A DNA stretch of 64,000 nt from a bacterium (lineage in GTDB: Bacteria > Myxococcota_A > Polyangia > HGW-17 > JAJRWW01): assembly GCA_043825095.1 (NCBI GenBank), contig JBDRSE010000102.1, forward strand, positions 4,655 to 68,654, in the 5' to 3' direction. The notes beneath the pieces are model-generated. The model ran no database searches, had not been told where the DNA came from, and was given only the letters and a program-made list of their open reading frames with translations. Position 1 is the stretch's first letter, and each line of letters starts with the position of its first letter. A program made the translations under genes and the position numbers. This document shows positions 26,524 to 53,467 of this stretch, one piece after another.

Positions 26524-26576
26524 AATCAAACTCGAACATTTTGAACAATATGCGGATCTGTCCTCTCAGTCAAAAC

Positions 26577-28505
26577 CTACCGTGTCATTGGGGCGAAGGG
26601 ATCCTTCAAATCTCCGAGCGAATTCCGAGGTCGCGGGCGCATCACGACCCTGCGCATGGGCGGGGGTTGCCTCTGACGAGCGGACACGATGATGACCCTC
26701 CTGGGCGGAGGGGCTCGTCGGAGCGGCGTCAGGCGCACCGTTGTCGTGGTGTCCCGTCGTTGATCCACCGCACGGACTTCCGCGCGGAAGCCCTGCTTGA
26801 AAATGCGGAATTTGCGCTCTGCCCGCGCCATGGGCCGACGCAGGGTCAACGGCGTGTACCCGATTACCCGATTTTCGTCGATGATGGCAGCGCCCGGCGG
26901 GACCGACAGCAAGGTGATCGCGACGGTGTCGACGGCCGGCTTGGTCATCACCGGCGCGGCGGACTGCCGCGACTTTACCTGCATCGTGTGTTCCGTGGTC
27001 ATCGTCGGCGTCATGGAGATGCCCGGGGTGGGCACGCCAGCGCCTGAGCCGCTCTCTGGCGCCTGTGACTGATACCACACGGCCGCGAACACACCCGCCG
27101 AGATCCCTAGCACCGCCAAGCTCAGCGCCAAGGCTATGGAGCGACGCCGGGAGCGCACTGCTGCGGAGCGCCGAATCACGCGCTGGGCCGTGTGCTCCTC
27201 GACCCAGAGGTCCCCGACGCTGTCGGCCAGCTCTGCGCCGGCACGCCGCACCCTCTCGGCGGTGGGAGGATCGGGCTCTTGCCAGACGCCGAGACTGGAG
27301 GGTGGCTCCACCGCCGAGGGCGGAGGTGCCGGCCTTGGCGGGTCGTCCCCGGAAGCGACCACCGTCGGCATCAGGGTCGGGTCCTGCTGCGGATCTTCGG
27401 GACTGGGCTCCGCGCCCATCGACTGAGGTACGGGCGCTGCCGCGCTCGCGCCGCCGTCCACAACATCGTGGTGAGCGGTCGGTGCAATGGCCAGCTCGTC
27501 CGTCGAGGCCAGACGCAGCGCCTCGAGCATCGCGTCCATGGTCGGGAATCGATCCTCGGGACTGCGGGCGAGCGCCCGGAGAATGGCTCGATCCAGGGCC
27601 GGAGAGACGGCATTGTCCCCCCGTACCTTCCGGGGGCTTTCCGGCGACTCCGAGAGCAGTCGGGTGATGACCGCCATGAAGCTCTCACCCGCGAAGGGGA
27701 CCACACCGCTGACCAATCGGTAGAGCAGTATCCCCAGGGAAAAGATGTCGGTCCTGTGGTCAATCTCGACCGACCCCGAGGCCTGCTCCGGAGACATGTA
27801 TTCCGGCGTTCCAAGCACCTGCCCCGCCCGGGTGAGTTTCCTGTTTTCCTGAGTTATCTTCGCCAGTCCGAAGTCCAGGATTTTGACGTGCTCCTTTCCC
27901 TCTTCGTCCCTGACGAGGCCGATGTTCTCCGGTTTCAGGTCCCGGTGGACGACTCCTGACTGATGCGCGACCGCCACCCCACGCCCAATCTCCAGCGCGA
28001 TGTTCACGGCGCGGTCGACGGCCAGCGGTCGTCCCGGTTCGAGCAGGTCGTGCAGGGTCCGACCGTCCAGCAGCTCCATCACGAAAAACGGAGCGCCCGT
28101 CGACACCTTCCCAAAGTCGCTGATGCCGATGATGTTGGGATGGCTCAACCGCGAGGCGGCCTTGGCCTCACGCAGGAACCGCTCGACAATCTCGGGATCG
28201 GCCACGAACTCCTGCTTGAGCACTTTCACGGCCACCCGCTTTTCGATCAGTAGATGCGTGGACGCGTACACCGTGGAGAGGGCGCCTTCCCCGAGGCGGG
28301 TTTCGATCTTGTACCGCTTGTCGAGCAGCTCGCCGACGAGCGGATCGTAGAGCATCTTCGTGCCCGTGCCGCTCCCGACGCCGATGCCAACCCCGACGGT
28401 CACCGGGCTCCGTTCTTCGGAATCGAGGGGGATGATCGTACCGTCGCGGGGACACATGACCGCCGACGGTGGGACCTCGAGTTTGCAGGAGGGGCAGATT
28501 TTCAT
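26577..28505 (-). CDS. Ser/Thr protein kinase with N-terminal zinc-ribbon, TM helix and PEGA-like domain
   Basis: CPSC..CPRDG, HRDLKPEN, DFG, GTPEYMSPE, SVPPGA...IGYTP. Confidence 0.95.
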   Translation of the reverse strand: MKICPSCKLEVPPSAVMCPRDGTIIPLDSEERSPVTVGVGIGVGSGTGTKMLYDPLVGELLDKRYKIETRLGEGALSTVYASTHLLIEKRVAVKVLKQEFVADPEIVERFLREAKAASRLSHPNIIGISDFGKVSTGAPFFVMELLDGRTLHDLLEPGRPLAVDRAVNIALEIGRGVAVAHQSGVVHRDLKPENIGLVRDEEGKEHVKILDFGLAKITQENRKLTRAGQVLGTPEYMSPEQASGSVEIDHRTDIFSLGILLYRLVSGVVPFAGESFMAVITRLLSESPESPRKVRGDNAVSPALDRAILRALARSPEDRFPTMDAMLEALRLASTDELAIAPTAHHDVVDGGASAAAPVPQSMGAEPSPEDPQQDPTLMPTVVASGDDPPRPAPPPSAVEPPSSLGVWQEPDPPTAERVRRAGAELADSVGDLWVEEHTAQRVIRRSAAVRSRRRSIALALSLAVLGISAGVFAAVWYQSQAPESGSGAGVPTPGISMTPTMTTEHTMQVKSRQSAAPVMTKPAVDTVAITLLSVPPGAAIIDENRVIGYTPLTLRRPMARAERKFRIFKQGFRAEVRAVDQRRDTTTTVRLTPLRRAPPPRRVIIVSARQRQPPPMRRVVMRPRPRNSLGDLKDPFAPMTR

Positions 28506-28832: not shown

Positions 28833-29549
28833 TTGAGGCAATTCTGGAGCAGCCTCACCGCGGGCAACCGGACACAATGGGTCGTTCTCATCGGCGGCTG
28901 CGCTGTGATGGTGATCTACCTGGTTCAAGGCCATCACAGCTTCTACACCAAACACCTGGCCGCGCCGCTATTCGGTGCGGAGCCGTACAATGACTGGTAT
29001 CGGCATCTCTACCAGTTTCTGGCGGCCTTCGTGCTCCTGGCGATCCTCCCGGCCCTGGCCGCTCGATTCGCGCTGGGCGTGCGATTGGCCGATCAGGGCG
29101 TTACGCTCGGGGACTGGCGATTCGGGTTCCCCGCCGTGGCGGTCGGCATCCTGGTGCTCACCCCGGTCATGTACTTCGGCTCCTTAAACCCGGCGATTCA
29201 AAAAGAGTACCCGTTGACCCGGCTGGCGGGCTGTGGGACCGACCTGTTCGTTCTCTGGGAGCTTTGCTACCTGGTCTACTACATCGCCTGGGAGTACTTC
29301 TTTCGTGGGTTCAACCTCTTCCTGTTGAAGGAGCACTGGGGGGTGACGGCCGCCATTCTGTATCAGACCGTGCCCTCCACGGTGCTCCACATTGGCAAAC
29401 CCCAGTCGGAGATGATGGCCGCGATCCTCGGCGGGGTGCTCTTCGGAGCGCTCGCGATCCGCACCCGTTCGATGCTCTATCCCTTGCTTCTCCACTGGTA
29501 CGTCGGTGCCTGCACGGACTTCTTTTCACTGCTCAACATGGTGCGCTGA
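28833..29549 (+). CDS. CPBP (CAAX/Abi) family intramembrane glutamic endopeptidase
   Basis: Multi-TM; WEYFFRG, LHIGKPQSE, LLHW motifs. Confidence 0.9.
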   Translation: MRQFWSSLTAGNRTQWVVLIGGCAVMVIYLVQGHHSFYTKHLAAPLFGAEPYNDWYRHLYQFLAAFVLLAILPALAARFALGVRLADQGVTLGDWRFGFPAVAVGILVLTPVMYFGSLNPAIQKEYPLTRLAGCGTDLFVLWELCYLVYYIAWEYFFRGFNLFLLKEHWGVTAAILYQTVPSTVLHIGKPQSEMMAAILGGVLFGALAIRTRSMLYPLLLHWYVGACTDFFSLLNMVR

Positions 29550-29686: not shown

Positions 29687-31240
29687 TTGATCAGTCGCCT
29701 CGGTTCAATGCTGGTTCGGGAAGGTCTGCTCACGCCGGCTCAGCACCTCACCGCAATCGAGCACGCCGAGGAGTCCGGACGCCACTTCGTCACCACAGTG
29801 ATCCAGCTGGGGTTCGTCTCCGAGGACCGGCTGGTGGAGCTCATGCGGACGCGGCTGGTGGTGCCACTCGCCGCGAGATCCATGATCCTGGCCGTGCCCG
29901 TAGAGGTCCTCGCGCTCGTCCCGGCCGACCTTGCCCGCCAGTTCCTGGTCTGCCCCATCGGCGAGGAGGAAGACGGAGGCCTGCTGTTGCTCATGGCCGA
30001 TGCGAGCGACCGGCACGCTATGGACGAAGTGGCCTATCACACGGGCAAGCGAGTGGTGCGCGTGATCACGACCGAGTCGGCGACGCGCTGGGCGATTCAG
30101 CACTATTACCGAGTGGACATGGGCCAGCCGCAGGCGCCTTGGGCGGAGCGGGACAGCCAGGAGATCATGCTGCTCACGAAGGTGAAGGTGCAGTCCTCGG
30201 AGCTCCATTCCGTGGACCCGGAGCCAGAACCGGAGGTTCTGCTGCTGACCCCCGGCATGCGGCGCGCTTCGGACCTGCTTCCCGCGCCCTCACCACCGCC
30301 CGCCGGGCCGAAGCCCCCTCCTACGGCCCCGGCCGCCTCTGCAGCGTCCGCGGTTCCGCCGCTGCCCGCCGGACCACCGCAGGGTCCGAAACCGCCGCCG
30401 ACCGCGCCGCAGCCGGCTCCACTGCGCGACACCGAACCCCTGGCCGGATTGGGTGCTTTGCCCTCGCTTCCGGACGAAGCACCCGGCGGGGCGACCGCGT
30501 CGGAGCAGCAGCCCCGTCGGAAGCGGCGCGGGACCATACTCGGTGTCCCGCGGGTCGACATTCGGAAGCTGCGGAAACCGGAGGCCTACACCGCCGACAC
30601 GAGTGCGACGGAGCCATCGAATGTCTCCACAAAGCTGCAGTCCCGACGGGTGACCCAGGCGCTGGAACCCAGGCCGGTGCCCCCGCTGGCGCCTCCGGGT
30701 CGGCCCAGCATGGGATTGTGGAGCTCCTCGTCAGACGCGTCCACCCCGACCGAGCTGGCGTCTCGCAGCGAGGCTTACGCGAGCGCGTCCTTGGCACTGA
30801 AGCGAGCGCGCGACCGCGACGACGTGGGCCGGATCCTCTGCCGCTATTTTCAGGAGTATTATTTCAATGTTGCGTTCCTGATCCTGAAACAGGGCGCGAT
30901 CGTCGGTTGGGACGCTGCGGGCACGCGGCTCACCCCGGAGCTCATCCGCGGAGTTTCCATCCCTTCGAACGGCCCATCGACATTTCGGGAGGTGCTTGCG
31001 TCGCGTCTGCCTCGGAGTGGACGGCTCGACGAGACTCCCGTGGATGAGCTCTTCCAGGCTGCCATCGGTTATCGGCCGGTTTACGTGGCGATCATGCCCG
31101 TGCAGATTCGGGAAAAAGTCGTCGGCATTGTCTACTGCGACGGACCGCACACCGGGATGAACGAAGACGAGGTAAACGCGGTACTCGCGGACTCAGAGAC
31201 AGCCTACGAGCGAATAATTGTCGACCGCCGTGGTGAGTAA
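29687..31240 (+). CDS. GspE-N/MshEN-domain protein with Pro-rich linker and C-terminal GAF-like domain
   Basis: RLGSMLVREGLLT..Q motif, T2SSE_N-like region (LARQFLVCP...LMADASD), C-terminal MPVQIREKVVGIVYCD; no ATPase domain. Confidence 0.8.
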   Translation: MISRLGSMLVREGLLTPAQHLTAIEHAEESGRHFVTTVIQLGFVSEDRLVELMRTRLVVPLAARSMILAVPVEVLALVPADLARQFLVCPIGEEEDGGLLLLMADASDRHAMDEVAYHTGKRVVRVITTESATRWAIQHYYRVDMGQPQAPWAERDSQEIMLLTKVKVQSSELHSVDPEPEPEVLLLTPGMRRASDLLPAPSPPPAGPKPPPTAPAASAASAVPPLPAGPPQGPKPPPTAPQPAPLRDTEPLAGLGALPSLPDEAPGGATASEQQPRRKRRGTILGVPRVDIRKLRKPEAYTADTSATEPSNVSTKLQSRRVTQALEPRPVPPLAPPGRPSMGLWSSSSDASTPTELASRSEAYASASLALKRARDRDDVGRILCRYFQEYYFNVAFLILKQGAIVGWDAAGTRLTPELIRGVSIPSNGPSTFREVLASRLPRSGRLDETPVDELFQAAIGYRPVYVAIMPVQIREKVVGIVYCDGPHTGMNEDEVNAVLADSETAYERIIVDRRGE

Positions 31241-31592
31241 TATCCGACCACTGTGCCGTGTTAAAACTCGCCACTCAGCCACGGCTGCTCGCAACGGCTT
31301 TCGATGGAATTGTGACAGATGTCTGCCATTTGGATCCTGGTGTGTTAATTTTTTTACTACCCAATGGCTAATGACGTAGGTACCGCCTGTTCGGCAGCAT
31401 ATTCAGTATTGCGTATATTTACGGGCGGTTGAATATTGCCGGAAGAAATATGGGCCTCGATGTATCGGGATTGTGACACCAGATCACGGAGGAATATTTC
31501 TTGCATGTGAACCAGTGCTGATCTCAATGTTAACGACATGGTGCTCTTCAACATCGAAATAGTCTCCCTGCCCTACAGCTCGTGGGGTATCC

Positions 31593-34500
31593 ATGGCTGA
31601 GCTTGGCAGCAAGTACATCGCTGATCCGAGCCTAGGCGCGCTGTGCGTCGGCCGCGAGGCCGAGCTGGCCAAGCTGGGGGCCCTGTATCGCCGTACCTCG
31701 GCGGAGGGCGGTCACGCGATTCTGATCACCGGGCAGTCGGGTGTGGGCAAGTCGCGTCTGTTGCTCGAGTTCAAGCGTCGCATGCGCCTGGAGGGCGTGT
31801 GCGTGCTCGAGGGGCGATGCCTGCAAGAGCAGCGCGCCTACGCGCCGTTTCTGGAGATTGTCCGGGATGCCACCGGCTACCTGGCGGATCTTGCTCCGTC
31901 CCTGTTTCACGCCTCTCGCTCCATGGAGATCATGGACGGGTTGTCCGGGAGCGGCGAGCCCGAATCCGAGCTGCGGTTCGATCGCTGGCAGGATCGTCGC
32001 ATTGCGCTGTACGAGTCCGTGGGGGATCTCCTCTCGACCGTGGCGCAGGTCCGGCCTCCGGTGGTCATTCTCCACGACATCCAATTCGGTGATGACGCGA
32101 CTCTGAGTTTGCTGAGCTATCTCCTCAACACACTTTCTGAGTCCCATGAGCTGCGCCAGCCCGACCCGGTGACTCCCTTCAAGGGACTGTTCGTTTTGTC
32201 GGAGCGGCGGAGCGCTATAGCCACGGTGGGTCGTCAGTATCTTTCTGGCGTCTCGCACACGCATCTCACGCTGCAGGGCCTCGACCGCGCCGGTGTCGAA
32301 GCTTTCTTGACCGCGCCCCAGGTCGTGAATCGTTTCGTCGAGGTGACCGGTGGGAATCCTCGCCAGATCGAGGCGCTGCTCGAGCAGGAGGCCTCTGACG
32401 CCGACGAGCTGCTGCTCAGTCGGATCAAGGCCCTGCCCGCTTCCGCGAACAGGATCGCGGCGGTCCTGGCCGTGCTGGGCAGGCCGGCCAGTCCTCGCAC
32501 CCTGGGCAAGCTGGCAAATCTCAACGGCAGCAGTCTGGGGCAGGCAATGGAGCGGCTCCTGCGCGCCGAAGTGCTGCTCTCCTCCATCCAGGACGGGGAT
32601 CTCCAGCTCAGTTTCCGATCGACCTCGGACCGGGAGGCGGTGATACGGCAGCTGGGAGACGACGAGCGGCAGCAGATCCATCGCGCTATCGGCCACGAAA
32701 TGCTGGAGCTGGGTGAAGAGGTGTGCGCCGCCGAGCACTTGCTCAACGTGGAGGGTGAGGCGCAGGCGGCGGAAGTGGCGCTGCGCGCGGGTGAACGGCT
32801 GGAGATTGCGTTTGCGTACGATCGCGCCATTGACCTCTACGAGCGCGCCATCGCCCGGTCGCTGGATCGAGCGCTCCGTCACGAGCTCGAGGAGCGCCTC
32901 TGCGACCTCCTCGAGCTGACCGGAGAGTACGAGCGGGCAGTGTCGTTGACGGAACGGCTCGAGGAGCGTTCTCCGGAGTCCGCCACGCTGCAACGACGCA
33001 TCGGGCACCTTCACCTGCAGCAGGGAGACTTCACCCGGGCGAAAGCCAAGCTGCAAAAAGCAATGGCGCTCGTGGACGGCGAAGGGTCGCCGCAGCTCGA
33101 GCGGGCGCTCATCTTGTCCGACCTCGCGGAGGTGTCGTATCTGCAGGGGCAGCACCAGCAGGCGCAGGATACAGTGGCCCGCGTGCTCGCGTCGGACCTG
33201 ACCGAAACCCCCGTTCCGGGCCTCAAAGCCAGGAACACCTTGGGGAAGGTGCTCCTCGAGCAGGGGGACTTCGCAGAGGCGGCCCGCATCTTCGAAAAGA
33301 ATCTGGAAGAAAGCCGGGCGGCGAACGTCATCCCCGAGGAGATTCGAGCACAGATCAATCTCGGGATCTCTCACCTCCGGCGGGGCCGCTACGACGAGGC
33401 GGCCGAATGCTACCGCGCGGGACTCTCCGCGGCGGAGTCCTCCCAAGACTACCGTCACCGAGCGTTCTGCTTGCAGAACCTCGGCGTGTTGGCGCATTGG
33501 CGTCGCGACTATACCTCGGCGCTGCAGCTCTTCCACGACGCCATTCAGACGTTCTTGAAGCTCGGTCATCAGAGCTGGCTCTCGTGGTTGGCGCTGGACC
33601 TCGGGGATCTCTACCTGGAGCTGGGCGATGTGGTTCGGGCCGAGTCCATGCTCGAGTTGTCCACCAACCTCGTGGACGCCAAGGGGGACTCCCAAACGCC
33701 GTTGTTCGCGCACATGCTGCAGGGCAAGCTGGCCGCGTTCTTCGGCCGACTCGGGGACGCCGAGCGGCACTTCCAAACCGCCTATCGTGAGGCGCAGAAG
33801 GCGGGCAAGAGTGACGAGACGGCATCGGCTGCGCTGGAGCTTTCGCGGCTAAAGCTGGCCACCGGTGACGACGCCGCCGCCGAGAAGCTCGCAGACCACC
33901 TGACCGAAGCCCCGACCCTGAAGACGCGTGCCCAAGCCCGGGCGCTGCTCGGAGAGGCCCTGCTGCAGCGGGGGGACCTGGACGGCGCGCTTCGCTCGCT
34001 CAATACGGCGCGAACGCTGTACGAGCGCGCGGGTGACCCGTTCGGTCTGTGGTCCGTGCTGGCCGTGCTCGGGGAAGTGCATTCCCTCGCCGGCAATGTG
34101 CATGAGGCGACGCGAGTGACGGAGCAGGCGCGCCTGATCGAGTCGCGCGTTCGCAAGAGCGTGCCCCGGGAGTTCGTAGACACGTACCTGACGCATCCGC
34201 GACGGCGACCGTTGCTTGAGCGCATCGGAGTGACCGTGGCGGATCCGGTCGAGGCGCCGACACCGATTTCCGCCACCGGAGGCATCCTGGCGCCTGCTCC
34301 CGGGCAGGTCGCTCGAGGTCCTCTGCGGAGATCCGTGCGCCGGTCGGCTCGACACGTCGAGCGGTATCCCCGCATCGTCGGGGAAAGCGAAGAGATCCTC
34401 CGGGTGCTCGATCTGATCGACAAGATCGCGCCGCTCGAGTCCACGGTTCTCATCCGAGGCGAGAGCGGAACGGGCAAAGAACTGGTGGCCGAGGCCATCC

Positions 34501-35417
34501 ACACCAACAGCCCGCGCAAGAGCAAACCCTTCATCAAGGTGAACTGCGGCGCTCTGGTGGAGAGCCTGCTGCTCAGTGAGCTGTTCGGCCACGAGCGGGG
34601 CGCGTTCACCGGCGCCTCCCGGCTGAAGAAGGGGCGGTTCGAGGTCGCCAACGGCGGCACGATTTTCCTGGACGAGATCGGTGACATCACTCCGAGGACG
34701 CAGGTCGCGCTGCTGCGCGTGCTGCAGGAGAAGGAGTTCGAGCGGGTGGGCGGAAACAGCCCAATCCACGTCGACGTCCGGATCGTCTGCGCCACGAACC
34801 GAAACCTCGAGAGTATGGTGCAGGACGGCTCCTTCCGCGAGGATCTGTACTATCGGCTCAAGGCGTTCCAGATCGAGGCTCCCCCGCTGCGTTCCCGCAG
34901 CTCCGACATCGCAATGCTGGCGCATCATTGCATCGATCGGATGTCCGAGGATGGAGAGTGTCCGCGCAAGGCGCTGAGTCAGGAAGCCATCGACGTGCTC
35001 ACGCAGTGGCGCTGGCCCGGCAATGTTCGAGAGTTACAGAACGTTCTACGCTCCGTTTCGCTGCTGAGCGACGGGCAGACGATTCGTCGGCCGGATTTTC
35101 GGGACTTCATCTCGCTGGACGAGATTGGTGTGACCGCGACGACGACGGTGCGATTGGTTTCAGACTCGGAGCCGACTCCTGAGTCCGCGCCCGCGCCCGC
35201 CGAGGACGGAGACGACGGAGCCCAGGCGGAGGAACCGTTCGACTTCCTGATCAACGAGGGGCTGTCCCTCCACGAATACAAGAAGAAGATCGAGGAGGAG
35301 TGCATCGCCAGAGCGCTCCGCCAGACCAATGGGAACATCACCCGTGCCGCTGCGTTGCTGAAGATGAAGCGACCGCGGCTCAGCCAGCTGGTGAAAGAGT
35401 ACGGCCTCTCCGGCTGA
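31593..35417 (+). CDS. sigma54-dependent activator with N-terminal STAND-like NTPase and TPR array
   Basis: VGREAEL, GQSGVGKS, TGGNP; many TPR-like repeats (NTLG, NLG, QNLG); GESGTGKE, GAFTGA, FLDEIG, WPGNVRELQN, HTH GNITRAAALL. Confidence 0.93.
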   Translation: MAELGSKYIADPSLGALCVGREAELAKLGALYRRTSAEGGHAILITGQSGVGKSRLLLEFKRRMRLEGVCVLEGRCLQEQRAYAPFLEIVRDATGYLADLAPSLFHASRSMEIMDGLSGSGEPESELRFDRWQDRRIALYESVGDLLSTVAQVRPPVVILHDIQFGDDATLSLLSYLLNTLSESHELRQPDPVTPFKGLFVLSERRSAIATVGRQYLSGVSHTHLTLQGLDRAGVEAFLTAPQVVNRFVEVTGGNPRQIEALLEQEASDADELLLSRIKALPASANRIAAVLAVLGRPASPRTLGKLANLNGSSLGQAMERLLRAEVLLSSIQDGDLQLSFRSTSDREAVIRQLGDDERQQIHRAIGHEMLELGEEVCAAEHLLNVEGEAQAAEVALRAGERLEIAFAYDRAIDLYERAIARSLDRALRHELEERLCDLLELTGEYERAVSLTERLEERSPESATLQRRIGHLHLQQGDFTRAKAKLQKAMALVDGEGSPQLERALILSDLAEVSYLQGQHQQAQDTVARVLASDLTETPVPGLKARNTLGKVLLEQGDFAEAARIFEKNLEESRAANVIPEEIRAQINLGISHLRRGRYDEAAECYRAGLSAAESSQDYRHRAFCLQNLGVLAHWRRDYTSALQLFHDAIQTFLKLGHQSWLSWLALDLGDLYLELGDVVRAESMLELSTNLVDAKGDSQTPLFAHMLQGKLAAFFGRLGDAERHFQTAYREAQKAGKSDETASAALELSRLKLATGDDAAAEKLADHLTEAPTLKTRAQARALLGEALLQRGDLDGALRSLNTARTLYERAGDPFGLWSVLAVLGEVHSLAGNVHEATRVTEQARLIESRVRKSVPREFVDTYLTHPRRRPLLERIGVTVADPVEAPTPISATGGILAPAPGQVARGPLRRSVRRSARHVERYPRIVGESEEILRVLDLIDKIAPLESTVLIRGESGTGKELVAEAIHTNSPRKSKPFIKVNCGALVESLLLSELFGHERGAFTGASRLKKGRFEVANGGTIFLDEIGDITPRTQVALLRVLQEKEFERVGGNSPIHVDVRIVCATNRNLESMVQDGSFREDLYYRLKAFQIEAPPLRSRSSDIAMLAHHCIDRMSEDGECPRKALSQEAIDVLTQWRWPGNVRELQNVLRSVSLLSDGQTIRRPDFRDFISLDEIGVTATTTVRLVSDSEPTPESAPAPAEDGDDGAQAEEPFDFLINEGLSLHEYKKKIEEECIARALRQTNGNITRAAALLKMKRPRLSQLVKEYGLSG

Positions 35418-35433
35418 ACGGGAAAGGGTCAAG

Positions 35434-36087
35434 ATGATGAGAACACTGGCATACTATATGGTCGTTGGCGCCCTGGCAGCGGTGCTGTCGGGGTGCATGG
35501 GGGGCTGGGGACCGGAGGTCGAACGCACCGGGAAATCCCTTGTCACCTTGGAAGCCGATGAGCTCCCTGCCGACCTGGATGAGTGCCAAACCTACTTTGG
35601 ACCGGACGGCCAGTGGGACACTCCGGAGGCGGTGTATCGCGTAGGCGGTCGCCCCGGCACCGTGGTCTTCGTGCAGGATGGGGCTCCCGTCTGCCAAACG
35701 CCGGTGGAGCTGGTCCGAGTCATGCTACCGGGGTTCGAAATCGGCCCGGTGGTGCGGACCAACGGCATGGGTGGCGAGTCTGCCGAGGACCCGGTCGATG
35801 ACTCGAACCCGTTGCCCGCGACTCCGAAAGCCGGAGGGAGCGTTTCTACCAAAGGGCCTGCCGACGACTCGAATCCCCTGCCTGCCACGCCCGTGGGCGG
35901 TGAGAGCGCGGACTCCAGCGGTGGTGCCGACGATTCGAACCCCCTGCCCGCGCTCCCCATTGGAACCGGAACGGCTTCGTCCGGTGGCGTCGCCGGGGAC
36001 TCGAATCCCCTGCCCGCACGGACCAACGGCAAGGCGGACCGTGTCGAGTTCGGCCCCGAGCACTCGGACCCCTTCTCAGAGCTCTAG
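35434..36087 (+). CDS. exported lipoprotein with four DSNPLPA repeats
   Basis: LSGC lipobox; begins 16 bp after the activator stop; repeated C-terminal motif. Confidence 0.85.
   Translation: MMRTLAYYMVVGALAAVLSGCMGGWGPEVERTGKSLVTLEADELPADLDECQTYFGPDGQWDTPEAVYRVGGRPGTVVFVQDGAPVCQTPVELVRVMLPGFEIGPVVRTNGMGGESAEDPVDDSNPLPATPKAGGSVSTKGPADDSNPLPATPVGGESADSSGGADDSNPLPALPIGTGTASSGGVAGDSNPLPARTNGKADRVEFGPEHSDPFSEL
35797..36018 (+). repeat. four (D/G)DSNPLPA coding repeats with exact 66-bp period
   Basis: Copies at 35797, 35863, 35929, 35995; within DSNPLPA all nucleotide differences are synonymous. Confidence 0.95.
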
Positions 36088-36141
36088 CCCGCACACTCCC
36101 CAGAATACCGCGGACATCCCCTGATTCGAGAAACTACCGGT

Positions 36142-38754
36142 CTATAATACGACACTGCCGTTGCCGTGTTTGGCGGATGGGGAGCGCCCGGAAAGGATTT
36201 GGAGGTTGGCGAGCTCACGGCGTTTCGCCACCCGATTGACCTCTTCCCAAATCTGGGGGTACTTGCTCAGGATACGGTAGAACTCAGCAGCGGCGAGCTG
36301 AACGATTTCGGTCGGTGTGACCGTGGTGACAGAGGCAACGGCGTTGCCCCCCTTCAGCAGTGACATCTCGCCGAAGTATGTGCCGTCTGTCAGGCTCGAC
36401 AGGACCCTTTCGCTCCCATCGGGTTGCGTTTTTGTGACCTTCACTTCGCCAATGAGAATCAGGAAGAATCCGCCCCCGGGCTCACCTTCCGTGATTATTT
36501 TGGAGTTTTCGGGAATTCTGCGGAAACGCAGTCGGCCCATGAGGGACTCACGCTCCTCCTCTGAGAGCGGTTCGAAAAACGGGGCGGATTGCACCAGCGT
36601 GCCGAGCAAACGACGTCGGTAGAACTGTCGTAATGTGTTTCCAAAAGCAGGGTCGCTTTTCGTCAGGTTGGCGATCACTTTCCTGGAGATCTCGAAGAAC
36701 ACACCGTCCTCCGACACGGTGACGGTCGCGTGCCTCTTCCGATCCGACAGCAGCGCAAACTCTCCGAAAAAAGCTCCCGGGCCCAGGGTCGCCAGATCGA
36801 TCTTCCCGCCTTGGCGGTCCTCCTTGCTGACGGTCACCTTGCCAGAGCTCACGACGAACAGAGCGTTTCCGGGGTCTCCCTCACGAACGATGATCGCCCC
36901 GGTCTTTTCCGTTCGGCGAATCAGCCGGGACTTCAACATCTCCCGAGAGGTTTCGCTGAGATCTCGGAAAAGCTGGATTTCCTCGAGGCGCACCTCATCT
37001 ACGGGGCTGGTCGGCGTGGCGGAGATCGCGTCCGTGGCCTGCAGCGCGGCGGCTCCCATGGGGATTGTCATCTTCGAAGACTTGCGTCGCCCTCCCTGCG
37101 TGGATGGGCGTCCGTGCGGTTCCGCCGTGGAAGTGGGCGGCGCTGATCCTTCCGCCGCAGGGATTGGAGTCGCCATGGATTGCCGCGCTTGTGCGGCCGC
37201 TGCGGAGCCTGGGAACGGAACCGATGTGACCGGAGTAGGAGGGGGCTGCGACAGCGCGTCGGGTCCCCTGCCCGCATCTTCGTTCCCGAACTCAGCCCAG
37301 AACGCCGCCTCGTCCTCGTCGAAAACACTCTCAATCTCCACGTCTCCCTGCTCCTCCAGATTCGCGGTGAAAGGCTCTGGAGCGGAGGCGCAGGCCATGG
37401 AGGGCGGGAGGTCGGGTTTCTGCGGTCGGGACTGCGGGGGAGGCGTCATCGAGGGCGGCAGATCGGCTCTCCTGGTCGCGTCTGCCCGTTCGCGATCCGA
37501 CGTCGCTTCCTGCGAGGTCTGCGGCGGTCGGTTGGGGGCGCCAGTGACCGCCGGCAACGGGGAACGCCCCTGGGCGGTCGGCCGTTCGGCCGGGGGAGGC
37601 ACGTCGACATCGGGCGCCTCCGGCAGATCCGGGTGTTCGGGCATCGGCATGCCGACGAGCGTCCGTCGTGGGACCGCCTTCTTCGATTCAGCCGGATTGG
37701 GCATGATCGCGCTGACGTCGATGCTCATGGCGGACTTCCGGATGGTTTCGTCATAGCTCGACGGGCCGGGAGAGGTGGTTTCCTCCTGCTCGCCATCGAG
37801 GAAGGAGTCGTCACCGGCGGGCGATGATGGGACATCCACCGTCAGCTCCAGGTCGCTCTCACGGAATGCCGCCGATCCTGCCGCTGCCAGCGGATCGGCG
37901 TGCTCAGCGGTCGTTTCTTCATGCAGCTCGCTCGGGGCTGCGACGTCCTTACCGACGCTTAGAACCTCGACCTCGTTGCCGACGGCAACAACAGGGGGCG
38001 GCGGCCCCCTCGCGGGCAGCGGTGGTGGGGCTAAGCGCGTCTCCGGTGGAAGCACAACACGTTCCGGGGGAATGTGTTTGTCGGGCCTCGAAGGGGCGGG
38101 CTCTCCGGCCGATTCGTGGTGTCGCATACTGGGTAGCGACGGCTGAAACCCGTCACCTCGCGAAGGGACACCAGCCCCGTCGACTGCCTCCACCGTCTCA
38201 TCCAGGTCCAGATCCGACGACATCTCCGGAAGCACATCGACCGGGAGCATGGGGCGCGAGCGTCGCCGGCGACTCCGTGGGCCATCCGCCTTTTCCGGCG
38301 CGGGCAGTCTCAGCACCGATTGCGACGTCGGCGTGGCCTTCCCGGCCACGTCTCCCGGGTCGGTGCCCTCCTCCTCGGACACCTCGTCCTCGGCCGGCAT
38401 GACCCAGCGCCCGTTCTCCTGCTGATGCAGCTGCGGCATGCTCTTGGATTTGATGTCGACTGCACGCTGCGCCGAAAGCTCCGTCAACGCGGACTCAGTG
38501 GTTTCGTCCCCGGGCTGGATCTCAAGTATGCCTTTGTAGACGGAGATTGCCTGAACGAGCTTACCCGTGTTGGCGTAGGCCTCGGCCACCTCCTGGTAGT
38601 GAGCAACGGCGTCTTTGGCCTTACCGAGATCCTTCAACGCGCCGGCTAGTTTCAGGCGTGCAACGAGGTTGTTTGGGTCCTTCTTGACGATGCCGGCTTG
38701 CTCTTTTGCGAGCTTCTTCAGCTGACGTTTGGTAAGTCGCGATTCGGAGGCCAT
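36142..38754 (-). CDS. TPR plus tandem cyclic-nucleotide-binding domain protein
   Basis: N-terminal TPR; long acidic/Pro linker; two CNB domains (REGDPG..FFGEFALL..RHATV; EGEPG..YFGEMSLL..ASV). Confidence 0.9.
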   Translation of the reverse strand: MASESRLTKRQLKKLAKEQAGIVKKDPNNLVARLKLAGALKDLGKAKDAVAHYQEVAEAYANTGKLVQAISVYKGILEIQPGDETTESALTELSAQRAVDIKSKSMPQLHQQENGRWVMPAEDEVSEEEGTDPGDVAGKATPTSQSVLRLPAPEKADGPRSRRRRSRPMLPVDVLPEMSSDLDLDETVEAVDGAGVPSRGDGFQPSLPSMRHHESAGEPAPSRPDKHIPPERVVLPPETRLAPPPLPARGPPPPVVAVGNEVEVLSVGKDVAAPSELHEETTAEHADPLAAAGSAAFRESDLELTVDVPSSPAGDDSFLDGEQEETTSPGPSSYDETIRKSAMSIDVSAIMPNPAESKKAVPRRTLVGMPMPEHPDLPEAPDVDVPPPAERPTAQGRSPLPAVTGAPNRPPQTSQEATSDRERADATRRADLPPSMTPPPQSRPQKPDLPPSMACASAPEPFTANLEEQGDVEIESVFDEDEAAFWAEFGNEDAGRGPDALSQPPPTPVTSVPFPGSAAAAQARQSMATPIPAAEGSAPPTSTAEPHGRPSTQGGRRKSSKMTIPMGAAALQATDAISATPTSPVDEVRLEEIQLFRDLSETSREMLKSRLIRRTEKTGAIIVREGDPGNALFVVSSGKVTVSKEDRQGGKIDLATLGPGAFFGEFALLSDRKRHATVTVSEDGVFFEISRKVIANLTKSDPAFGNTLRQFYRRRLLGTLVQSAPFFEPLSEEERESLMGRLRFRRIPENSKIITEGEPGGGFFLILIGEVKVTKTQPDGSERVLSSLTDGTYFGEMSLLKGGNAVASVTTVTPTEIVQLAAAEFYRILSKYPQIWEEVNRVAKRRELANLQILSGRSPSAKHGNGSVVL

Positions 38755-38766
38755 GTCCGATGCTTC

Positions 38767-39444
38767 CTACTGTGGGCGCAGGTTCACCGCAACGCTGAAT
38801 TTTCTCGCCGATCCCTTGAACTTGTTGAAGCGCCACTGCCGGAGGAGCCCTCGAACACACCCCTCGAACCCGGAACCGATCGGCGGCACGACCATGATTC
38901 TACCCATGCGGCCGGAGGTCAGAACGGTGAACTTGAGCTTGACGCGTCGGCTCCCCATTTGCAGCGAAGCGTTCTTCTTCAGCGCGTTCTGATAGCAACC
39001 CTTGATGCCGCGTCGTGCTGCCCTCGCCTTGCTCGGAAGGTCTTTCAGGGCCGCCGGGGTGCCATCCTCTGGGGTGGGGCGCATGTCCGGCCTCATGCCG
39101 GACGCCATGGACCCACTGTGCATCACCGGGGCCATGGTCGCCTCCATGGGTCTCTTCTGGAGCGTGTATTCGATGGGATCCAGCTCGAAATCGCAAGGTT
39201 TTTGGCTATAGATCTTGAAGTCGTTCTGTAGATTCGTTACCCGCTGATTCAGCTGCGCCAGCTCGCCCTGGAGGGTAGATTCATGCTCCTTGGATTGCCG
39301 TAGCTGCTGCTCCAGCGACCCGATCTTCTTGTCTTTGCTACCGTCGTCTTTCTTTGCGCACGCGAAGAACGCAGTGGCCAGGATCGCAACGGCGCAGACC
39401 ATGGAAATGGCTCTCAAGAGTCGCTCCTCAATTTGGTAATTCAC
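38767..39444 (-). CDS. lipoprotein with coiled coil and AgmX/PglI-like (TonB-C-like) C-terminal domain
   Basis: AFFAC lipobox; IKGCYQNALKKNASL...VKLKFTVLTSG...GCV...WRF. Confidence 0.75.
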   Translation of the reverse strand: MNYQIEERLLRAISMVCAVAILATAFFACAKKDDGSKDKKIGSLEQQLRQSKEHESTLQGELAQLNQRVTNLQNDFKIYSQKPCDFELDPIEYTLQKRPMEATMAPVMHSGSMASGMRPDMRPTPEDGTPAALKDLPSKARAARRGIKGCYQNALKKNASLQMGSRRVKLKFTVLTSGRMGRIMVVPPIGSGFEGCVRGLLRQWRFNKFKGSARKFSVAVNLRPQ

Positions 39445-39643
39445 GAAACCATACGCCCGGACAACGCTCCCACCGCAAGGTGAACTAGGATATCATAAAA
39501 CCGTGGTATTTTCAGCCGAATCTACCGAAGCGCCGATCCTTTTCCAGACGACAAAACAGGTATTGACCCGAACGTTTTCACATTCACCCGCCGGTCCGAG
39601 CATTCGGTCGCGGAACCTGTCTGAATGCGCAGCGTCCGGTGTG

Positions 39644-41527
39644 TTACTTGCTCGATTTTCGGAGCTCGCGTCGCAGATACCGCCGAAGCTGCGGCAGTGT
39701 GTGGTGATCCTCTGCCACGAATGTCAGCATCTGCCGCTCGCTTCGCCCCCCCAGCCTGATCAACGCCTTGGCCATGCTCGTCAGGATGTTGATCTGCGGC
39801 CCGAATTCAGGCTCTGCGCGGTAGGTCAGTAGAAACTGGCTGAAGGGCCACACGATGCGCTTGTCACCGATCTTGACCAGAGATTGAACGAGGTCCTCCA
39901 GGGCGGAGAATGGTGTCAAAGGCTCCTGGAGGTGGTCGAGAAGGGCCTTCACGGCTCGCTTCGAGCCAATGCGGCCCAGGGCGCGCGCCACGATCCCCAC
40001 GCCTTTGGGAGCGGTTCCCTTGAGGAAGTCGTATCGACCCTCAAGCGCCTTCAGGAAGATGGGCAGAGACTCTGAGCTTGCTCGCTCCACCAGCACGCTA
40101 CCCGCCACCCGGCGTACGTTCACAGGCGTCTTCGGGCTGTTCACGATTTTGAGGAGGATCTTGGAGATCCCTGCGCCCTTCACCTTGACGAGCTGAGTCA
40201 CCGCGAAAATCTTGGCGTCCTGGAACTGCAGATCCGGCTCGCGGATGACGTCCTTCAGGACGGTGAGCAACGGCGGGTTCTTGGCAAAGCTCTTCTGGGG
40301 CGGGGCGAAGGAGAATGCGTCGAACGTCGCACCGTGGGTCCGGATTTTTGTGTCCAGCTCCCAGACCCGGTCGCCATTGGTCGCGTCCAGCATCACGATC
40401 CGTCCGCCGCGTGAGATGTAGATGATCCGATCGCCGAGGTGGGCGGAGCTGATCACCTGCGTGGCCGGGTGCATGTAGGCCCACTTCAGCAGCCCCGTGG
40501 ACGCCTGGAAACCGAAAAAGTAGCGGTAATACTGCAGCGTCGCAACGTCGTTGGCAAACCCTTTCTGGTCCTTGGCGAATCGCCACAAGAGCCGGTTCCG
40601 GTCGATGGCTGTATAGGCGACCATACTGGGCTTGTAGCCGTCCCACCAATAGCGCGCCTTCACCGAGCGCTGCCGCTTGAGTGACACGGCGACAAAATCG
40701 CTGTTGAGCTTCCGGCCCGAGATGAGCGCCGGTGTGAACCGGATGGCTCCCACGCTGTCGTTGCCGAAGATGATTCCTTCAGGACCCGCGAGCGCATAAT
40801 TGATCAGAATCGGGGAGAGCCGGGTGCCGCGTTTGCGATAGGTCACGTTGTGGCGAACGTACACCCGCGCAATTTCGTTGCCCATTCGGCCGCTGAGCAC
40901 GGTGAGGTACTGGAACCGGTACGGCAGGAACACCAGGCCGTTACGCGCAGCAGGAGCACCCAGCGGACCGTTGGCCCGTTTGCGCCAGCGCACCCGACCC
41001 GTTCGACCTTCCACTGCCACAACATCCGCAAAGCGCGCGTATGCGCGCCCTCCGGACATGCTCGTCGCCGTGTAGTACAGGTCGTCCCCATCCGCGTCCA
41101 TGCCGAAGAACTCGGTGGCGTTGCCGTACTTGAACCGGTACTGCCAGGCAATCTCCCCGGTCTGCATGTGCCGAGCCATGAGGATGGTGCTGCCCTTGCG
41201 ATGGAAAATGAAGTTGCGTCCCACCACGATCTTGGACGAGCAGTCGCTGATGTTCTTGCGCCACACAACGCTGCCGGAAGTGAGGTCTACCGCGACGATG
41301 CCGCGTGGCCGGGTGGCCACGATGAAAGCCATGGGCTTGCCGAAACTGTTGCGAATGGCCGGTGTGGGTTGCGCGAGCCGGCGCGCGACGCTCCGGATGG
41401 CGCCCGGTGCGTTGCGGGGGTAGTTGATCTCAAAGGGGCGTTGCTCGCATCCCAGCAGCGCGGCGGACGTGGAGACAGTCCAGAGCGCAAGGACCAGCCG
41501 GTGGAACGTTGGATGGGTACGTCGCAT
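39644..41527 (-). CDS. PQQ-like beta-propeller plus HEAT-repeat lipoprotein
   Basis: LLGC lipobox; repeated D..TG..W blades; C-terminal ARALGRIG HEAT repeats. Confidence 0.8.
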   Translation of the reverse strand: MRRTHPTFHRLVLALWTVSTSAALLGCEQRPFEINYPRNAPGAIRSVARRLAQPTPAIRNSFGKPMAFIVATRPRGIVAVDLTSGSVVWRKNISDCSSKIVVGRNFIFHRKGSTILMARHMQTGEIAWQYRFKYGNATEFFGMDADGDDLYYTATSMSGGRAYARFADVVAVEGRTGRVRWRKRANGPLGAPAARNGLVFLPYRFQYLTVLSGRMGNEIARVYVRHNVTYRKRGTRLSPILINYALAGPEGIIFGNDSVGAIRFTPALISGRKLNSDFVAVSLKRQRSVKARYWWDGYKPSMVAYTAIDRNRLLWRFAKDQKGFANDVATLQYYRYFFGFQASTGLLKWAYMHPATQVISSAHLGDRIIYISRGGRIVMLDATNGDRVWELDTKIRTHGATFDAFSFAPPQKSFAKNPPLLTVLKDVIREPDLQFQDAKIFAVTQLVKVKGAGISKILLKIVNSPKTPVNVRRVAGSVLVERASSESLPIFLKALEGRYDFLKGTAPKGVGIVARALGRIGSKRAVKALLDHLQEPLTPFSALEDLVQSLVKIGDKRIVWPFSQFLLTYRAEPEFGPQINILTSMAKALIRLGGRSERQMLTFVAEDHHTLPQLRRYLRRELRKSSK

Positions 41528-41530
41528 CGT

Positions 41531-53283: not shown

Positions 53284-53334
53284 GTCGATTGCTCCTTGGA
53301 ACGTCGCTGGTTCCCTGTGTCCAGCAAATTGAAA

Positions 53335-53351
53335 AGCAATTATCGTGCCGG
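53335..53351 (-). promoter_or_regulatory. sigma54 (-24/-12) promoter of the beta-barrel gene
   Basis: CCGGCACGATAATTGCT matches TGGCACG-N4-TTGCW with GG-N10-GC spacing, about 50 bp upstream of the ATG. Confidence 0.8.
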
Positions 53352-53467
53352 TTTCTTGCATTGTTTCCAGATCTGACTCCGGTGCAAAACAAGGGTTAAA
53401 TAATGCTATGTTAACAGGTAAGGCAGCCACAGCGCAAGGGCGCTCGTTCAGAGGCTGAATCGCTGTA

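What the first reader, a model, noticed from the sequence alone, without database searches (positions are those of the whole stretch)
31593..36087. Candidate peptide-signalling system: STAND/TPR sigma54 activator plus exported multi-copy DSNPLPA propeptide
Seen: a 1274-aa protein (NTPase, long TPR array, intact GAFTGA sigma54 domain, HTH) is followed after 16 bp by a 217-aa lipoprotein. Its C-half carries DDSNPLPA, DDSNPLPA, DDSNPLPA and GDSNPLPA at an exact 22-aa period, separated by diverged Gly/Ser/Ala-rich spacers. Core codons vary only synonymously (AAC/AAT, CCG/CCC, TTG/CTG, GCG/GCC/GCA), so the peptide is under selection. Established: RRNPP systems (Rap-Phr, NprR-NprX, AimR-AimP) pair a TPR receptor with a downstream exported propeptide, and some propeptides carry repeated cores; STAND NTPases use TPRs as ligand sensors. 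Inference: this could be a Gram-negative, sigma54-output analogue in which a released DSNPLPA-type peptide controls the activator, giving quorum or kin signalling. A multi-core RiPP precursor or a repeated docking motif are alternatives.
Basis: partly seen in the sequence, partly recalled or inferred. Interest (0 to 1): 0.85.

Follow-up and report, generated by a model that had tools for sequence, protein, structure and literature searches.

The report
Sigma-54 activator paired with proline-motif lipoprotein
A large cytoplasmic sensor-regulator and the small exported lipoprotein encoded right after it form a gene pair kept throughout one bacterial phylum, and the lipoprotein's short proline motif, repeated four times here, looks like the part that matters, possibly as a signal read by the regulator.

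Summary
The 1274-aa protein (31593-35417) carries AAA_16 NTPase, TPR, sigma-54 AAA+ with GAFTGA, and HTH_8 domains. After a 16-nt gap comes a 217-aa lipoprotein (35434-36087) with DSNPLPA four times at an exact 66-nt period. The cores differ only by synonymous changes; the spacers are diverged.

In 51 of 55 related loci with enough downstream DNA, across many families of the phylum, the next same-strand gene is a lipoprotein with 1 to about 10 copies of a lineage-specific acidic Pro-x-Pro motif. In the other 4 genomes the gene lies elsewhere. Outside the window's class no other neighbour is conserved.

The ancestral form appears to be a 270-330-aa beta-sandwich with one motif in a disordered loop. 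This lineage kept a small N-domain and amplified the motif in a disordered tail. A sigma-54-type promoter sits upstream in 15 of 22 loci of the class.

Best reading (about 0.4): the motif is the ligand of the activator's TPR sensor, within an autoregulated loop. No binding evidence exists. RRNPP membership fails on 2 of 5 criteria. The main rival (0.33) is an envelope docking motif. No Pfam or NCBIfam family and no paper was found for the pair.

The parts
31342..31357 (.). AT-rich block conserved upstream of the operon in the family (candidate IHF or activator-binding region; function inferred)
   Evidence: Block of invariant columns in the alignment of five family loci; coordinates.
31491..31506 (+). 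Sigma-54-type promoter candidate (GG-N8-TTGCA), about 90-100 nt upstream of the activator start
   Evidence: Conserved in 4 of 5 family loci. The GG-N8-TTGC[AT] pattern is found near the activator start in 16 of 53 loci, 15 of 22 in the window's class, against 0.10 per 500 nt inside the genes. It has 3 mismatches to the recalled TGGCAC-N5-TTGCW consensus and was missed at <=2 mismatches.
31593..35417 (+). STAND/TPR sigma-54 enhancer-binding protein, 1274 aa, no predicted membrane segment
   Evidence: maximum Kyte-Doolittle 19-mer 1.34.
31644..32141 (+). AAA_16 (STAND NOD) NTPase domain, Walker A GQSGVGKS intact
   Evidence: Pfam PF13191 residues 18-183; Walker A column.
32781..34232 (+). TPR sensor array (about residues 397-880)
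   Evidence: TPR_12, TPR_2, TPR_19, TPR_MalT and other hits. Sequence matches to consensus TPR, LGN/Pins and bacterial kinesin-light-chain-like TPR structures.
34374..35108 (+). Sigma-54 interaction AAA+ domain with lid (GAFTGA at residue 1003)
   Evidence: PF00158 928-1095, PF25601 1100-1172; GAFTGA.
35286..35381 (+). Fis-type HTH_8 DNA-binding domain
   Evidence: PF02954 residues 1232-1263.
35434..36087 (+). Lipoprotein, 217 aa: signal peptide with lipobox (Cys21), small folded N-domain with a conserved Cys pair (C51, C87), disordered motif-bearing tail
   Evidence: invariant C21, C51, C87, W61; AF2: residues 34-100 pLDDT about 90, residues 105-217 about 50.
35797..35820 (+). Motif copy 1, DDSNPLPA
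35863..35886 (+). Motif copy 2, DDSNPLPA
35929..35952 (+). Motif copy 3, DDSNPLPA
35995..36018 (+). Motif copy 4, GDSNPLPA, followed by Arg as the last copy is in most relatives; probably the ancestral copy

Best explanation
This is a two-gene signalling module conserved across the phylum. Shown: the module consists of (1) a soluble cytoplasmic regulator that joins a STAND NTPase and a TPR sensor to a sigma-54 AAA+ activator and an HTH, and (2) a co-transcribed lipoprotein. The two genes often overlap by 4 nt. Beyond the lipobox, the lipoprotein's only universally conserved feature is an acidic Pro-x-Pro motif. The window's four DSNPLPA copies are a lineage-specific amplification, in a disordered tail, of what is a single loop motif in most other lineages. 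Inferred mechanism: the lipoprotein is exported and the motif-bearing segment is released, possibly by cleavage at the Arg or Arg-x-Lys that follows the last copy. The released peptide re-enters the cell and binds the TPR sensor. As in TPR-sensor STAND proteins such as MalT, ligand binding would relieve autoinhibition and allow oligomerisation, so the sigma-54 module activates transcription. Targets would include the operon's own sigma-54-type promoter at 31491-31506, giving positive feedback. More copies per precursor would mean more signal per translation, and lineage-specific cores would give specificity. I hold the module itself with about 0.85 confidence and the specific claim that the motif is the TPR ligand with about 0.4.
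For: Pair conservation: a lipoprotein lies immediately downstream on the same strand in 4 of 4 family loci, in 12 of 12 more distant loci of the class with >=450 bp downstream, and in 35 of 39 loci from other classes. In the remaining 4 genomes the lipoprotein is 1.7-6 kb downstream on the same strand (3) or on another contig (1). Outside the class none of the window's flanking genes is kept, and in 10 loci compared all-against-all only the pair recurs across families. Coupling: 21 of 43 called pairs overlap, 14 of them by 4 nt, with heuristic start calls. Co-occurrence in one sample of 301 genomes: 39 of the 48 genomes with the long-form lipoprotein also have the activator at E<=1e-60. The other 9 belong to the same families, and 1 of them was checked and does have the activator. 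Motif selection: DSNPLPA is invariant in 10 of 10 relatives that are 35-52% identical overall, and the copies here differ only synonymously. P-x-P are the only invariant non-structural columns of the long forms. Several lineages have lost the fold but kept the signal peptide and motif: L046, L052, L099, L108, L111-L113. Copy number expanded independently in several lineages, for example EPTPTPA, EPAPSPS, EPAPTAAR, DDPIPPTR and NDPMPA arrays. In one genome the whole pair is tandemly duplicated and the two motifs have diverged. The motif region is predicted to be disordered and accessible. Sigma-54-type promoter. From the literature: TPR-sensor STANDs are switched by inducer binding (PMC6468293, abstract read), and RRNPP receptors bind imported peptides through TPRs encoded next to the propeptide gene (PMC10075063, Introduction read).
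Against: The two proteins are predicted to sit in different compartments, and no importer or processing protease is conserved with the pair. Most lineages have a folded beta-sandwich lipoprotein of 270-330 aa with one internal motif, which is unlike known secreted propeptides. Back-to-back arrays such as (EPTPTPA)n resemble generic Pro-rich linkers. The NOD Walker A is degenerate in several families that still keep the pair, so the canonical STAND nucleotide switch is not universal. Motif type follows phylogeny, so co-variation with the TPR cannot be separated from shared descent. The TPR region is no more diverged than the NOD or arm regions (24-31% identity each). The sigma-54-type promoter was seen in only 1 of 31 loci outside the class. 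There is no experimental data.
Confidence: 0.4

Rival explanations
1. Envelope effector or docking motif. The lipoprotein is an output or accessory of the regulator, made in fixed ratio with it. Its acidic Pro-x-Pro motif docks onto a periplasmic or outer-membrane partner such as a protease, a TonB_C-like or beta-propeller protein, or peptidoglycan machinery. The activator's TPR sensor reads a different, cytoplasmic cue.
For: This reading resolves the compartment problem. The ancestral form is a folded beta-sandwich lipoprotein with weak fold likeness to the periplasmic protein MbnP (VIA Z 9.2, rmsd 4.0 over 185 residues; Atlas nearest named cluster 0.90). Short linear motifs in disordered loops typically act as docking sites. 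In the window's class several envelope-type genes are conserved nearby: an AgmX/PglI C-terminal-domain protein, a BamB-like PQQ/HEAT protein and a HEAT protein.
Against: Those neighbours are not kept outside the class, whereas the pair is. A regulator and one target staying adjacent, often overlapping, across a phylum is unusual unless they interact functionally. Lineages that lost the fold but kept signal peptide and motif show that the motif alone suffices. That is compatible with docking but needs an unidentified, equally conserved periplasmic receptor.
Confidence: 0.33
2. Export or lipoprotein-trafficking sentinel. The TPR sensor binds the motif of precursor that has not been exported. The module then reports Sec or lipoprotein-maturation failure and switches on a sigma-54 envelope-stress response.
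For: Both partners would be in the cytoplasm without any import step. Translational coupling puts nascent lipoprotein next to the activator.
Against: No precedent for a cytoplasmic STAND reading a pre-lipoprotein was found. Lineage-specific motif divergence and copy amplification are not obviously needed for such a role. There is no evidence on the regulon.
Confidence: 0.1
3. Generic Pro-rich spacer. The repeats are a low-complexity, extended linker with no specific recognition, and the linkage to the activator is only co-transcription.
For: Arrays such as (EPTPTPA)n and (EPAPSPS)n look like Pro/Thr or Pro/Ser linkers. Copy number is very variable.
Against: In the window's family all seven residues, including D, S and N, are invariant while the flanks diverge, and the copies differ only synonymously. 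Single-copy lineages conserve a defined motif such as G-N-P-L-P-L-P-F-E. The spacers, not the cores, carry the low-complexity Gly/Ser/Ala sequence.
Confidence: 0.07
4. Multi-core RiPP precursor.
For: The cores are repeated and separated by spacers.
Against: A lipoprotein signal peptide with lipobox is present in all relatives. Pfam on the flanking genes shows no modification enzyme, and none is conserved with the pair. Most relatives have a single motif inside a folded domain.
Confidence: 0.02

Closest known systems
RRNPP peptide quorum-sensing pairs (Rap-Phr, NprR-NprX, PlcR-PapR, AimR-AimP)
   Same: A cytoplasmic TPR-containing regulator is encoded directly next to, and upstream of, a Sec-exported protein. 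The functional part of that protein would be a short lineage-specific peptide. The genes are adjacent or overlapping. Possible autoregulation.
   Different: The receptor is 1274 aa with STAND NTPase and sigma-54 AAA+ modules rather than 250-500 aa. The partner is a 105-339-aa lipoprotein, mostly with a folded domain, rather than a 10-100-aa propeptide. The host is a diderm phylum, whereas RRNPP is described for Bacillota (PMC10075063 Introduction). Peptide release, import and binding are all unshown.
MalT-type STAND transcription factors with a TPR sensor (MalT, PH0952; LAL-family regulators)
   Same: AAA_16 NOD followed by a TPR/MalT-like sensor (PF17874 hit) and then a DNA-binding output. 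The expected logic is inducer binding, release of autoinhibition and multimerisation (PMC6468293 abstract).
   Different: The output is a sigma-54 AAA+ activator plus Fis-type HTH instead of a LuxR-type HTH, so the protein has two ATPase modules. There is no sequence-level match to MalT or PH0952 among solved structures. The candidate ligand is a gene-encoded peptide motif rather than a metabolite. The NOD P-loop is lost in some lineages.
Bacterial sigma-54 enhancer-binding proteins (NtrC, NifA, PspF and others)
   Same: Complete Sigma54_activat domain with GAFTGA, lid and HTH_8.
   Different: The regulatory N-terminus is a 900-aa STAND-TPR module rather than a receiver, GAF, PAS or V4R domain. 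No NCBIfam equivalog reaches its cut-off.
Polyprotein peptide precursors with tandem mature copies
   Same: Several identical cores at a fixed period, separated by diverged spacers, in an exported precursor.
   Different: No processing sites or protease have been demonstrated. The precursor is lipid-anchored.
MbnP periplasmic proteins
   Same: The long-form relatives are predicted beta-sandwiches with their best structural match to MbnP and with MbnP as the nearest named Atlas cluster.
   Different: The likeness is weak (Foldseek E about 8e-3, TM 0.33). There is no Pfam MbnP hit. The window's own protein lacks most of that fold.

Membership tests
Sigma-54 enhancer-binding protein (bEBP) | Sigma54_activat AAA+ domain with Walker A and GAFTGA loop | tested here: met
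   PF00158 at 1.1e-73, residues 928-1095; GESGTGKE at 956 and GAFTGA at 1003.
Sigma-54 enhancer-binding protein (bEBP) | C-terminal DNA-binding HTH | tested here: met
   HTH_8, residues 1232-1263.
Sigma-54 enhancer-binding protein (bEBP) | Activates a sigma-54 (-24/-12) promoter | tested here: inconclusive
   A GG-N8-TTGCA site at 31491-31506 is conserved in 4 of 5 family loci and enriched in the class. It has 3 mismatches to the recalled consensus, and there is no transcription data.
STAND NTPase with TPR sensor (MalT-like) | NOD (AAA_16) with intact Walker A | tested here: met
   PF13191, residues 18-183; GQSGVGKS. The P-loop is degenerate in relatives L100, L102-105, L107, L110 and L114-124.
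STAND NTPase with TPR sensor (MalT-like) | C-terminal TPR/SUPR sensor domain | tested here: met
   Multiple TPR families and TPR_MalT PF17874 at 3.3e-18.
STAND NTPase with TPR sensor (MalT-like) | Inducer-dependent multimerisation | not testable with these tools
   Needs biochemistry.
RRNPP quorum-sensing system (five criteria of PMC10075063) | 1) Propeptide is small (10-100 aa) | tested here: not met
   217 aa here; 105-339 aa in relatives.
RRNPP quorum-sensing system (five criteria of PMC10075063) | 2) Propeptide secreted via Sec | tested here: met
   Hydrophobic signal peptide, but of the lipoprotein (lipobox) type, in all called relatives. No SignalP was available, so this was judged from sequence.
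RRNPP quorum-sensing system (five criteria of PMC10075063) | 3) Receptor 250-500 aa | tested here: not met
   1274 aa.
RRNPP quorum-sensing system (five criteria of PMC10075063) | 4) Receptor harbours TPRs | tested here: met
RRNPP quorum-sensing system (five criteria of PMC10075063) | 5) Receptor and propeptide genes directly adjacent | tested here: met
   16-nt gap here; adjacent in 51 of 55 related loci.
RRNPP quorum-sensing system (five criteria of PMC10075063) | Mature peptide is imported and binds the receptor's TPRs | not testable with these tools
   Needs binding and uptake assays.
Bacterial lipoprotein | Signal peptide ending in a lipobox [LVI][ASTG][GA]C | tested here: met
   AAVLSGC with Cys21; maximum hydrophobic 15-mer 1.99 at residue 9. 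The Cys is invariant in alignments A1, A3 and A4.
MbnP family | MbnP domain (PF20243) or MbnP fold | tested here: inconclusive
   No Pfam hit in 10 long-form relatives. Foldseek E about 8e-3. VIA Z 9.2 as top hit. Atlas 0.90. The window's own short form was not searched by fold.
RiPP precursor | Leader/core peptide with adjacent modifying enzymes | tested here: not met
   The flanking genes encode a Rce1-like protease, an MshEN protein, a cNMP-binding protein, an AgmX-C-like protein, PQQ/HEAT proteins and kinases. None is conserved with the pair outside the class.

The most novel reading that the evidence does not exclude
A gene-encoded peptide signalling system in a diderm, socially behaving phylum (Myxococcota). 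A lipoprotein precursor releases lineage-specific acidic Pro-x-Pro peptides, four per molecule here. A cytoplasmic STAND-TPR receptor reads them and drives sigma-54 transcription directly, with positive feedback. This would be an RRNPP-like logic that arose independently, with an NLR-like receptor, and that could serve kin or quorum recognition.
Probability: 0.2. Interest if true: 0.92.

Novelty: new variant of a known kind. Interest (0 to 1): 0.72.

Why it matters
Peptide signalling read by cytoplasmic TPR receptors is described for Bacillota and their mobile elements. The RRNPP paper I read (PMC10075063, Introduction) names no diderm or Myxococcota example. Its supplementary tables, which could list other phyla, were not opened.

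A phylum-wide module that links an NLR-like STAND sensor to sigma-54 transcription and to a gene-encoded motif would give a directly testable case of three things: how STAND sensors in bacteria read protein or peptide ligands for regulation rather than defence, how a bEBP can be controlled by a second ATPase module, and whether myxobacterial relatives use encoded peptides for cell-cell or envelope-state signalling.

Even under the docking-motif rival, the pair defines two unannotated families and a compact short linear motif whose receptor can be searched for.

Tried and rejected
Complex prediction of the activator's TPR region (residues 375-900, alignment A2) with the lipoprotein tail (residues 108-217, alignment A1) returned 'no answer'. 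The score was 0.00 in both runs and the controls were not run.

Tandem Repeats Finder found no array because the repeat is conserved only at protein level.

A consensus sigma-54 promoter scan at <=2 mismatches gave 24 matches in the window against 24.5 expected, and none upstream of the operon. The promoter candidate emerged only from the family alignment.

I used the genome search at phylum level instead. As a result no organism names were obtained, and I did not try to infer them.

Foldseek against PDB gave nothing at E<=1e-3 for the long-form model.

Pfam and NCBIfam gave nothing for the lipoprotein or for 10 long-form relatives, apart from one chance-level hit.

Literature searches for the architecture or the motif found nothing relevant. 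PexR (PMC12754779, outline and abstract read) is a GAF-type bEBP and unrelated. PMC7159879 had no sigma-54 passage in its main text. Supplementary files were not opened, so RRNPP_detector supplementary tables that might list non-Bacillota candidates were not seen.

The Rce1-like CPBP protease at 28833-29549 was considered as a processing enzyme. It is kept only within the window's family.

Sequencing runs: two DNA runs hold the stretch and may be its source. In one RNA library (X5) short contigs of 151-206 nt with 1-4 differences lie on 32352-32557, 35130-35280, 35452-35602, 35869-36019 and 36091-36200. Contigs in an RNA library do not prove transcription, and no contig bridges the two genes, so this is at most a weak hint. 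The depth peak at 34373-34873 is the conserved AAA+ domain of other organisms. Parts without cover say nothing.


Full report
OBSERVATION

The two ORFs are as described. One is a 1274-aa protein at 31593-35417. A 217-aa protein at 35434-36087 follows it after 16 nt on the same strand.

Pfam places these domains on the large protein:
- AAA_16, residues 18-183
- a long TPR array, about residues 397-770, including a TPR_MalT hit
- Sigma54_activat, residues 928-1095
- an AAA+ lid
- HTH_8, residues 1232-1263

GAFTGA and both Walker A motifs are intact, and no membrane segment is predicted. NCBIfam matches only the sigma-54 part, and no equivalog reaches its cut-off.

The small protein begins with a hydrophobic signal peptide ending in the lipobox L-S-G-C (Cys21). 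It matches no Pfam or NCBIfam family.

DDSNPLPA (three times) and GDSNPLPA (once) start at nt 35797, 35863, 35929 and 35995, an exact 66-nt period. The 21-nt cores differ at 2-5 positions, all synonymous. The 14-aa spacers differ at 8-12 residues. A 6-mer seen four times is far beyond chance: only 82 of 20000 shuffles had any 6-mer even twice. The motif occurs nowhere else in the 8.1-Mb assembly, which is 87% complete.

THE PAIR IN RELATIVES

Within the window's own family, 4 other genomes carry the pair. There the whole region is collinear for more than 20 kb, so linkage says little. The family does show that DSNPLPA is invariant in 10 of 10 relatives that are otherwise only 35-52% identical. 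Copy number varies from 2 to 4. The lipid Cys, a Cys pair and a Trp in the N-domain are also conserved.

Full-length orthologues of the activator (36-42% identity over about 1270 residues) exist in other families of the class. Of the 16 loci fetched:
- 3 end before the downstream gene.
- 1 ends inside a truncated lipoprotein.
- All 12 others have, within -49 to +43 nt on the same strand, a 147-230-aa lipoprotein with 1-4 copies of a different acidic Pro-x-Pro core. Examples are NDPMPA x4, DDPIPI, GPEPEPA x3, DDPVPIR x2, DDPIPPTR x4, DDPVPPIHG x2, DDDPVPI(K/N)G x4, DPTPQPN x2, and single DDGNPLPPYP, DDSNPLPPYP and DDPIPIINEF.

A profile of the N-terminal 900 residues found the activator in 50 of 301 sampled genomes of the phylum. 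I fetched 40 of these loci:
- 1 has no downstream DNA.
- 35 of the other 39 have the lipoprotein immediately downstream.
- In the remaining 4 genomes a profile search finds it 1.7-6 kb downstream on the same strand (3 genomes) or on another contig (1 genome).

Overall, 51 of 55 loci with enough downstream DNA have the adjacent pair. Of 43 pairs with a called start, 21 overlap, 14 of them by 4 nt (start calls are heuristic).

Outside the class, none of the window's flanking genes is near the pair. In an all-against-all comparison of ten 20-kb loci, only the activator and the lipoprotein recur across families.

In the same 301-genome sample the long-form lipoprotein is found in 48 genomes:
- 39 of these are activator-positive at the strict threshold.
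- The other 9 lie in the same families. The one I checked (L132) has the activator next to it.
- It was not found in the other families of that sample.

WHAT THE LIPOPROTEIN IS

Outside the window's class the protein is mostly 266-339 aa. Its beta-rich N- and C-halves flank the motif region. Apart from the start Met, the lipid Cys, one Gly and one further Pro, the only invariant columns are P-x-P.

AlphaFold2 on one long form (mean pLDDT 84.3, pTM 0.76) gives a single beta-sandwich built from both halves. The motif sits in a low-confidence loop. Foldseek finds nothing at E<=1e-3. A wide structural scan puts MbnP first (Z 9.2, rmsd 4.0, 185 residues aligned), and the nearest named Atlas cluster is also MbnP (0.90). 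I treat this as a lead only.

Single-copy lineages carry defined motifs such as GNPLPLPFE, GDPIPLPFE, EPVPWRD and EPAPLPWRP. Other lineages have expanded arrays, such as EPTPTPA, DPTPSPA, EPAPSPS, EPAPIPA, EPAPTAAR and EPVPMPARN.

The last copy is usually followed by Arg or Arg-x-Lys. The window has ...PLPARTNGK.

The window's protein is a reduced form. It has a small N-domain (residues 34-100, pLDDT about 90) and a disordered tail (residues 105-217, pLDDT about 50). Some lineages keep only the signal peptide and motif (L046, L052, L099, L108, L111-L113).

The motif NPLP is shared between the window's family, a sister family of the same order (NPLPPYP) and a family of another class (GNPLPLPFE). 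So DSNPLPA is best read as an amplified version of an old loop motif.

REGULATION

An alignment of the five family loci shows a conserved GG-N8-TTGCA element (window 31491-31506) and a conserved AT-rich block (31342-31357) upstream of the activator. The relaxed pattern occurs near the activator start in 15 of 22 loci of the class and in 1 of 31 loci elsewhere. The background inside the genes is 0.10 per 500 nt.

Transcription of the operon from a sigma-54 promoter, and therefore autoregulation, is inferred and not shown.

MECHANISM

Shown: a tight, ancient, probably translationally coupled pair, and a short motif under strong purifying selection within lineages that differs between them.

Inferred: the motif is a recognition element. 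Because the activator is soluble and cytoplasmic and has no other sensory domain, its TPR sensor needs a ligand. TPR-sensor STANDs are switched by inducer binding (PMC6468293, abstract). The simplest partner for a sensor always encoded with a motif-bearing protein is that motif.

This requires one of two things:
- release and uptake of the peptide (RRNPP-like logic; PMC10075063, Introduction), or
- recognition before export (the sentinel variant).

Neither step has any evidence, and no transporter or protease is conserved with the pair.

The main rival is that the motif docks onto an envelope partner and the activator senses something else.

Further observations cut both ways:
- Independent amplification, loss of the fold with retention of the motif, and the tandemly duplicated pair with diverged motifs in L123 favour 'the motif is the function'.
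- The folded ancestral protein, the linker-like arrays and the degenerate NOD P-loops in several families argue against a simple propeptide and canonical STAND picture.
- Sensor regions (NOD, arm, TPR) are 24-31% identical to distant orthologues against 56-61% for the sigma-54 domain. This is expected under any model.

COMPARISON AND NOVELTY

The large protein is a bona fide bEBP and a STAND/TPR protein by domain content.

The pair meets 3 of the 5 RRNPP criteria (Sec export, TPRs, adjacency) and fails 2 (partner size, receptor size). It should not be filed as RRNPP, although it may work like one.

I found no curated family for the lipoprotein. I found no paper on a STAND-TPR sigma-54 activator with a linked lipoprotein, or on these motifs. 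Those searches cover only the open-access library, and supplements were not seen. All database relatives that carry a name are from metagenome-assembled genomes and are labelled only as sigma-54-interacting regulators or hypothetical proteins.

VERDICT

The mechanism is unresolved.

- Best explanation (motif is the TPR ligand in an autoregulated loop): about 0.4
- Envelope docking rival: about 0.33
- Interest: 0.72
- Novelty: new variant of a known kind

Noticed in passing
window 53335-53350 (- strand): The best consensus sigma-54 promoter-like site in the window (CGGCACGATAATTGCT, 1 mismatch), 18 kb from the operon. ORFs on the - strand overlap or abut it (52435-53475, 52817-53392).
   Followed up: partly
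L100, L102-L105, L107, L110, L114-L124 (activator orthologues of other families): The Walker A of the STAND NOD is degenerate (no GK[ST]) in these lineages, yet the activator-lipoprotein pair is retained. This suggests a pseudo-NTPase NOD there.
   Followed up: partly
L123 479-10194 (- strand): One genome carries two complete activator-lipoprotein pairs in tandem. Both activators are 1302 aa. The motifs have diverged (GNPIPDPFH against GDPIPHPMQ). This is a natural test case for cognate specificity.
   Followed up: partly
window 29687-31240 (+): A 517-aa protein with an MshEN (c-di-GMP-binding) N-terminal domain lies directly upstream. Relatives sit upstream of the activator in several distant loci of the class (L041, L044, L047, L049, L051, L053, L054). 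None was found within about 8 kb either side of the pair in the ten loci examined for this, nine of them from other classes.
   Followed up: partly
window 36142-42370 (- strand): A convergent gene string: an 870-aa protein with two cNMP-binding domains and a long Pro-rich region, a 225-aa AgmX/PglI C-terminal (TonB_C-like) domain protein, a 627-aa BamB-like PQQ plus HEAT protein, and a 279-aa HEAT protein. The string is conserved next to the pair in about half of the distant loci of the class. None of it was found near the pair in the ten loci examined for this, nine of them from other classes.
   Followed up: partly
window 28833-29549 (+): A Rce1-like (CPBP/CAAX) intramembrane protease gene lies two genes upstream. 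It is conserved only within the window's family, so it is unlikely to be a dedicated processing enzyme of the module.
   Followed up: partly
window 24463-28505 (- strand): Two adjacent Ser/Thr protein kinase genes (688 and 642 aa; one has a PEGA domain).
   Followed up: no
L124 4071-4895 (long-form lipoprotein model m5478026efbc6): The predicted beta-sandwich has its best, though weak, structural and language-model likeness to MbnP, a periplasmic partner protein of methanobactin operons.
   Followed up: partly
L128 12723-14138 (- strand): In one complete genome a second, shorter ORF clusters with the activators by BLAST and lies directly upstream of the activator. It is possibly another sigma-54 regulator. 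Its domains were not examined.
   Followed up: no
window 32352-36200: An estuary metatranscriptome library holds short contigs 97-99% identical to parts of both genes, including the repeat region (35869-36019). This hints at a close relative and possibly at expression. DNA carry-over cannot be excluded.
   Followed up: partly
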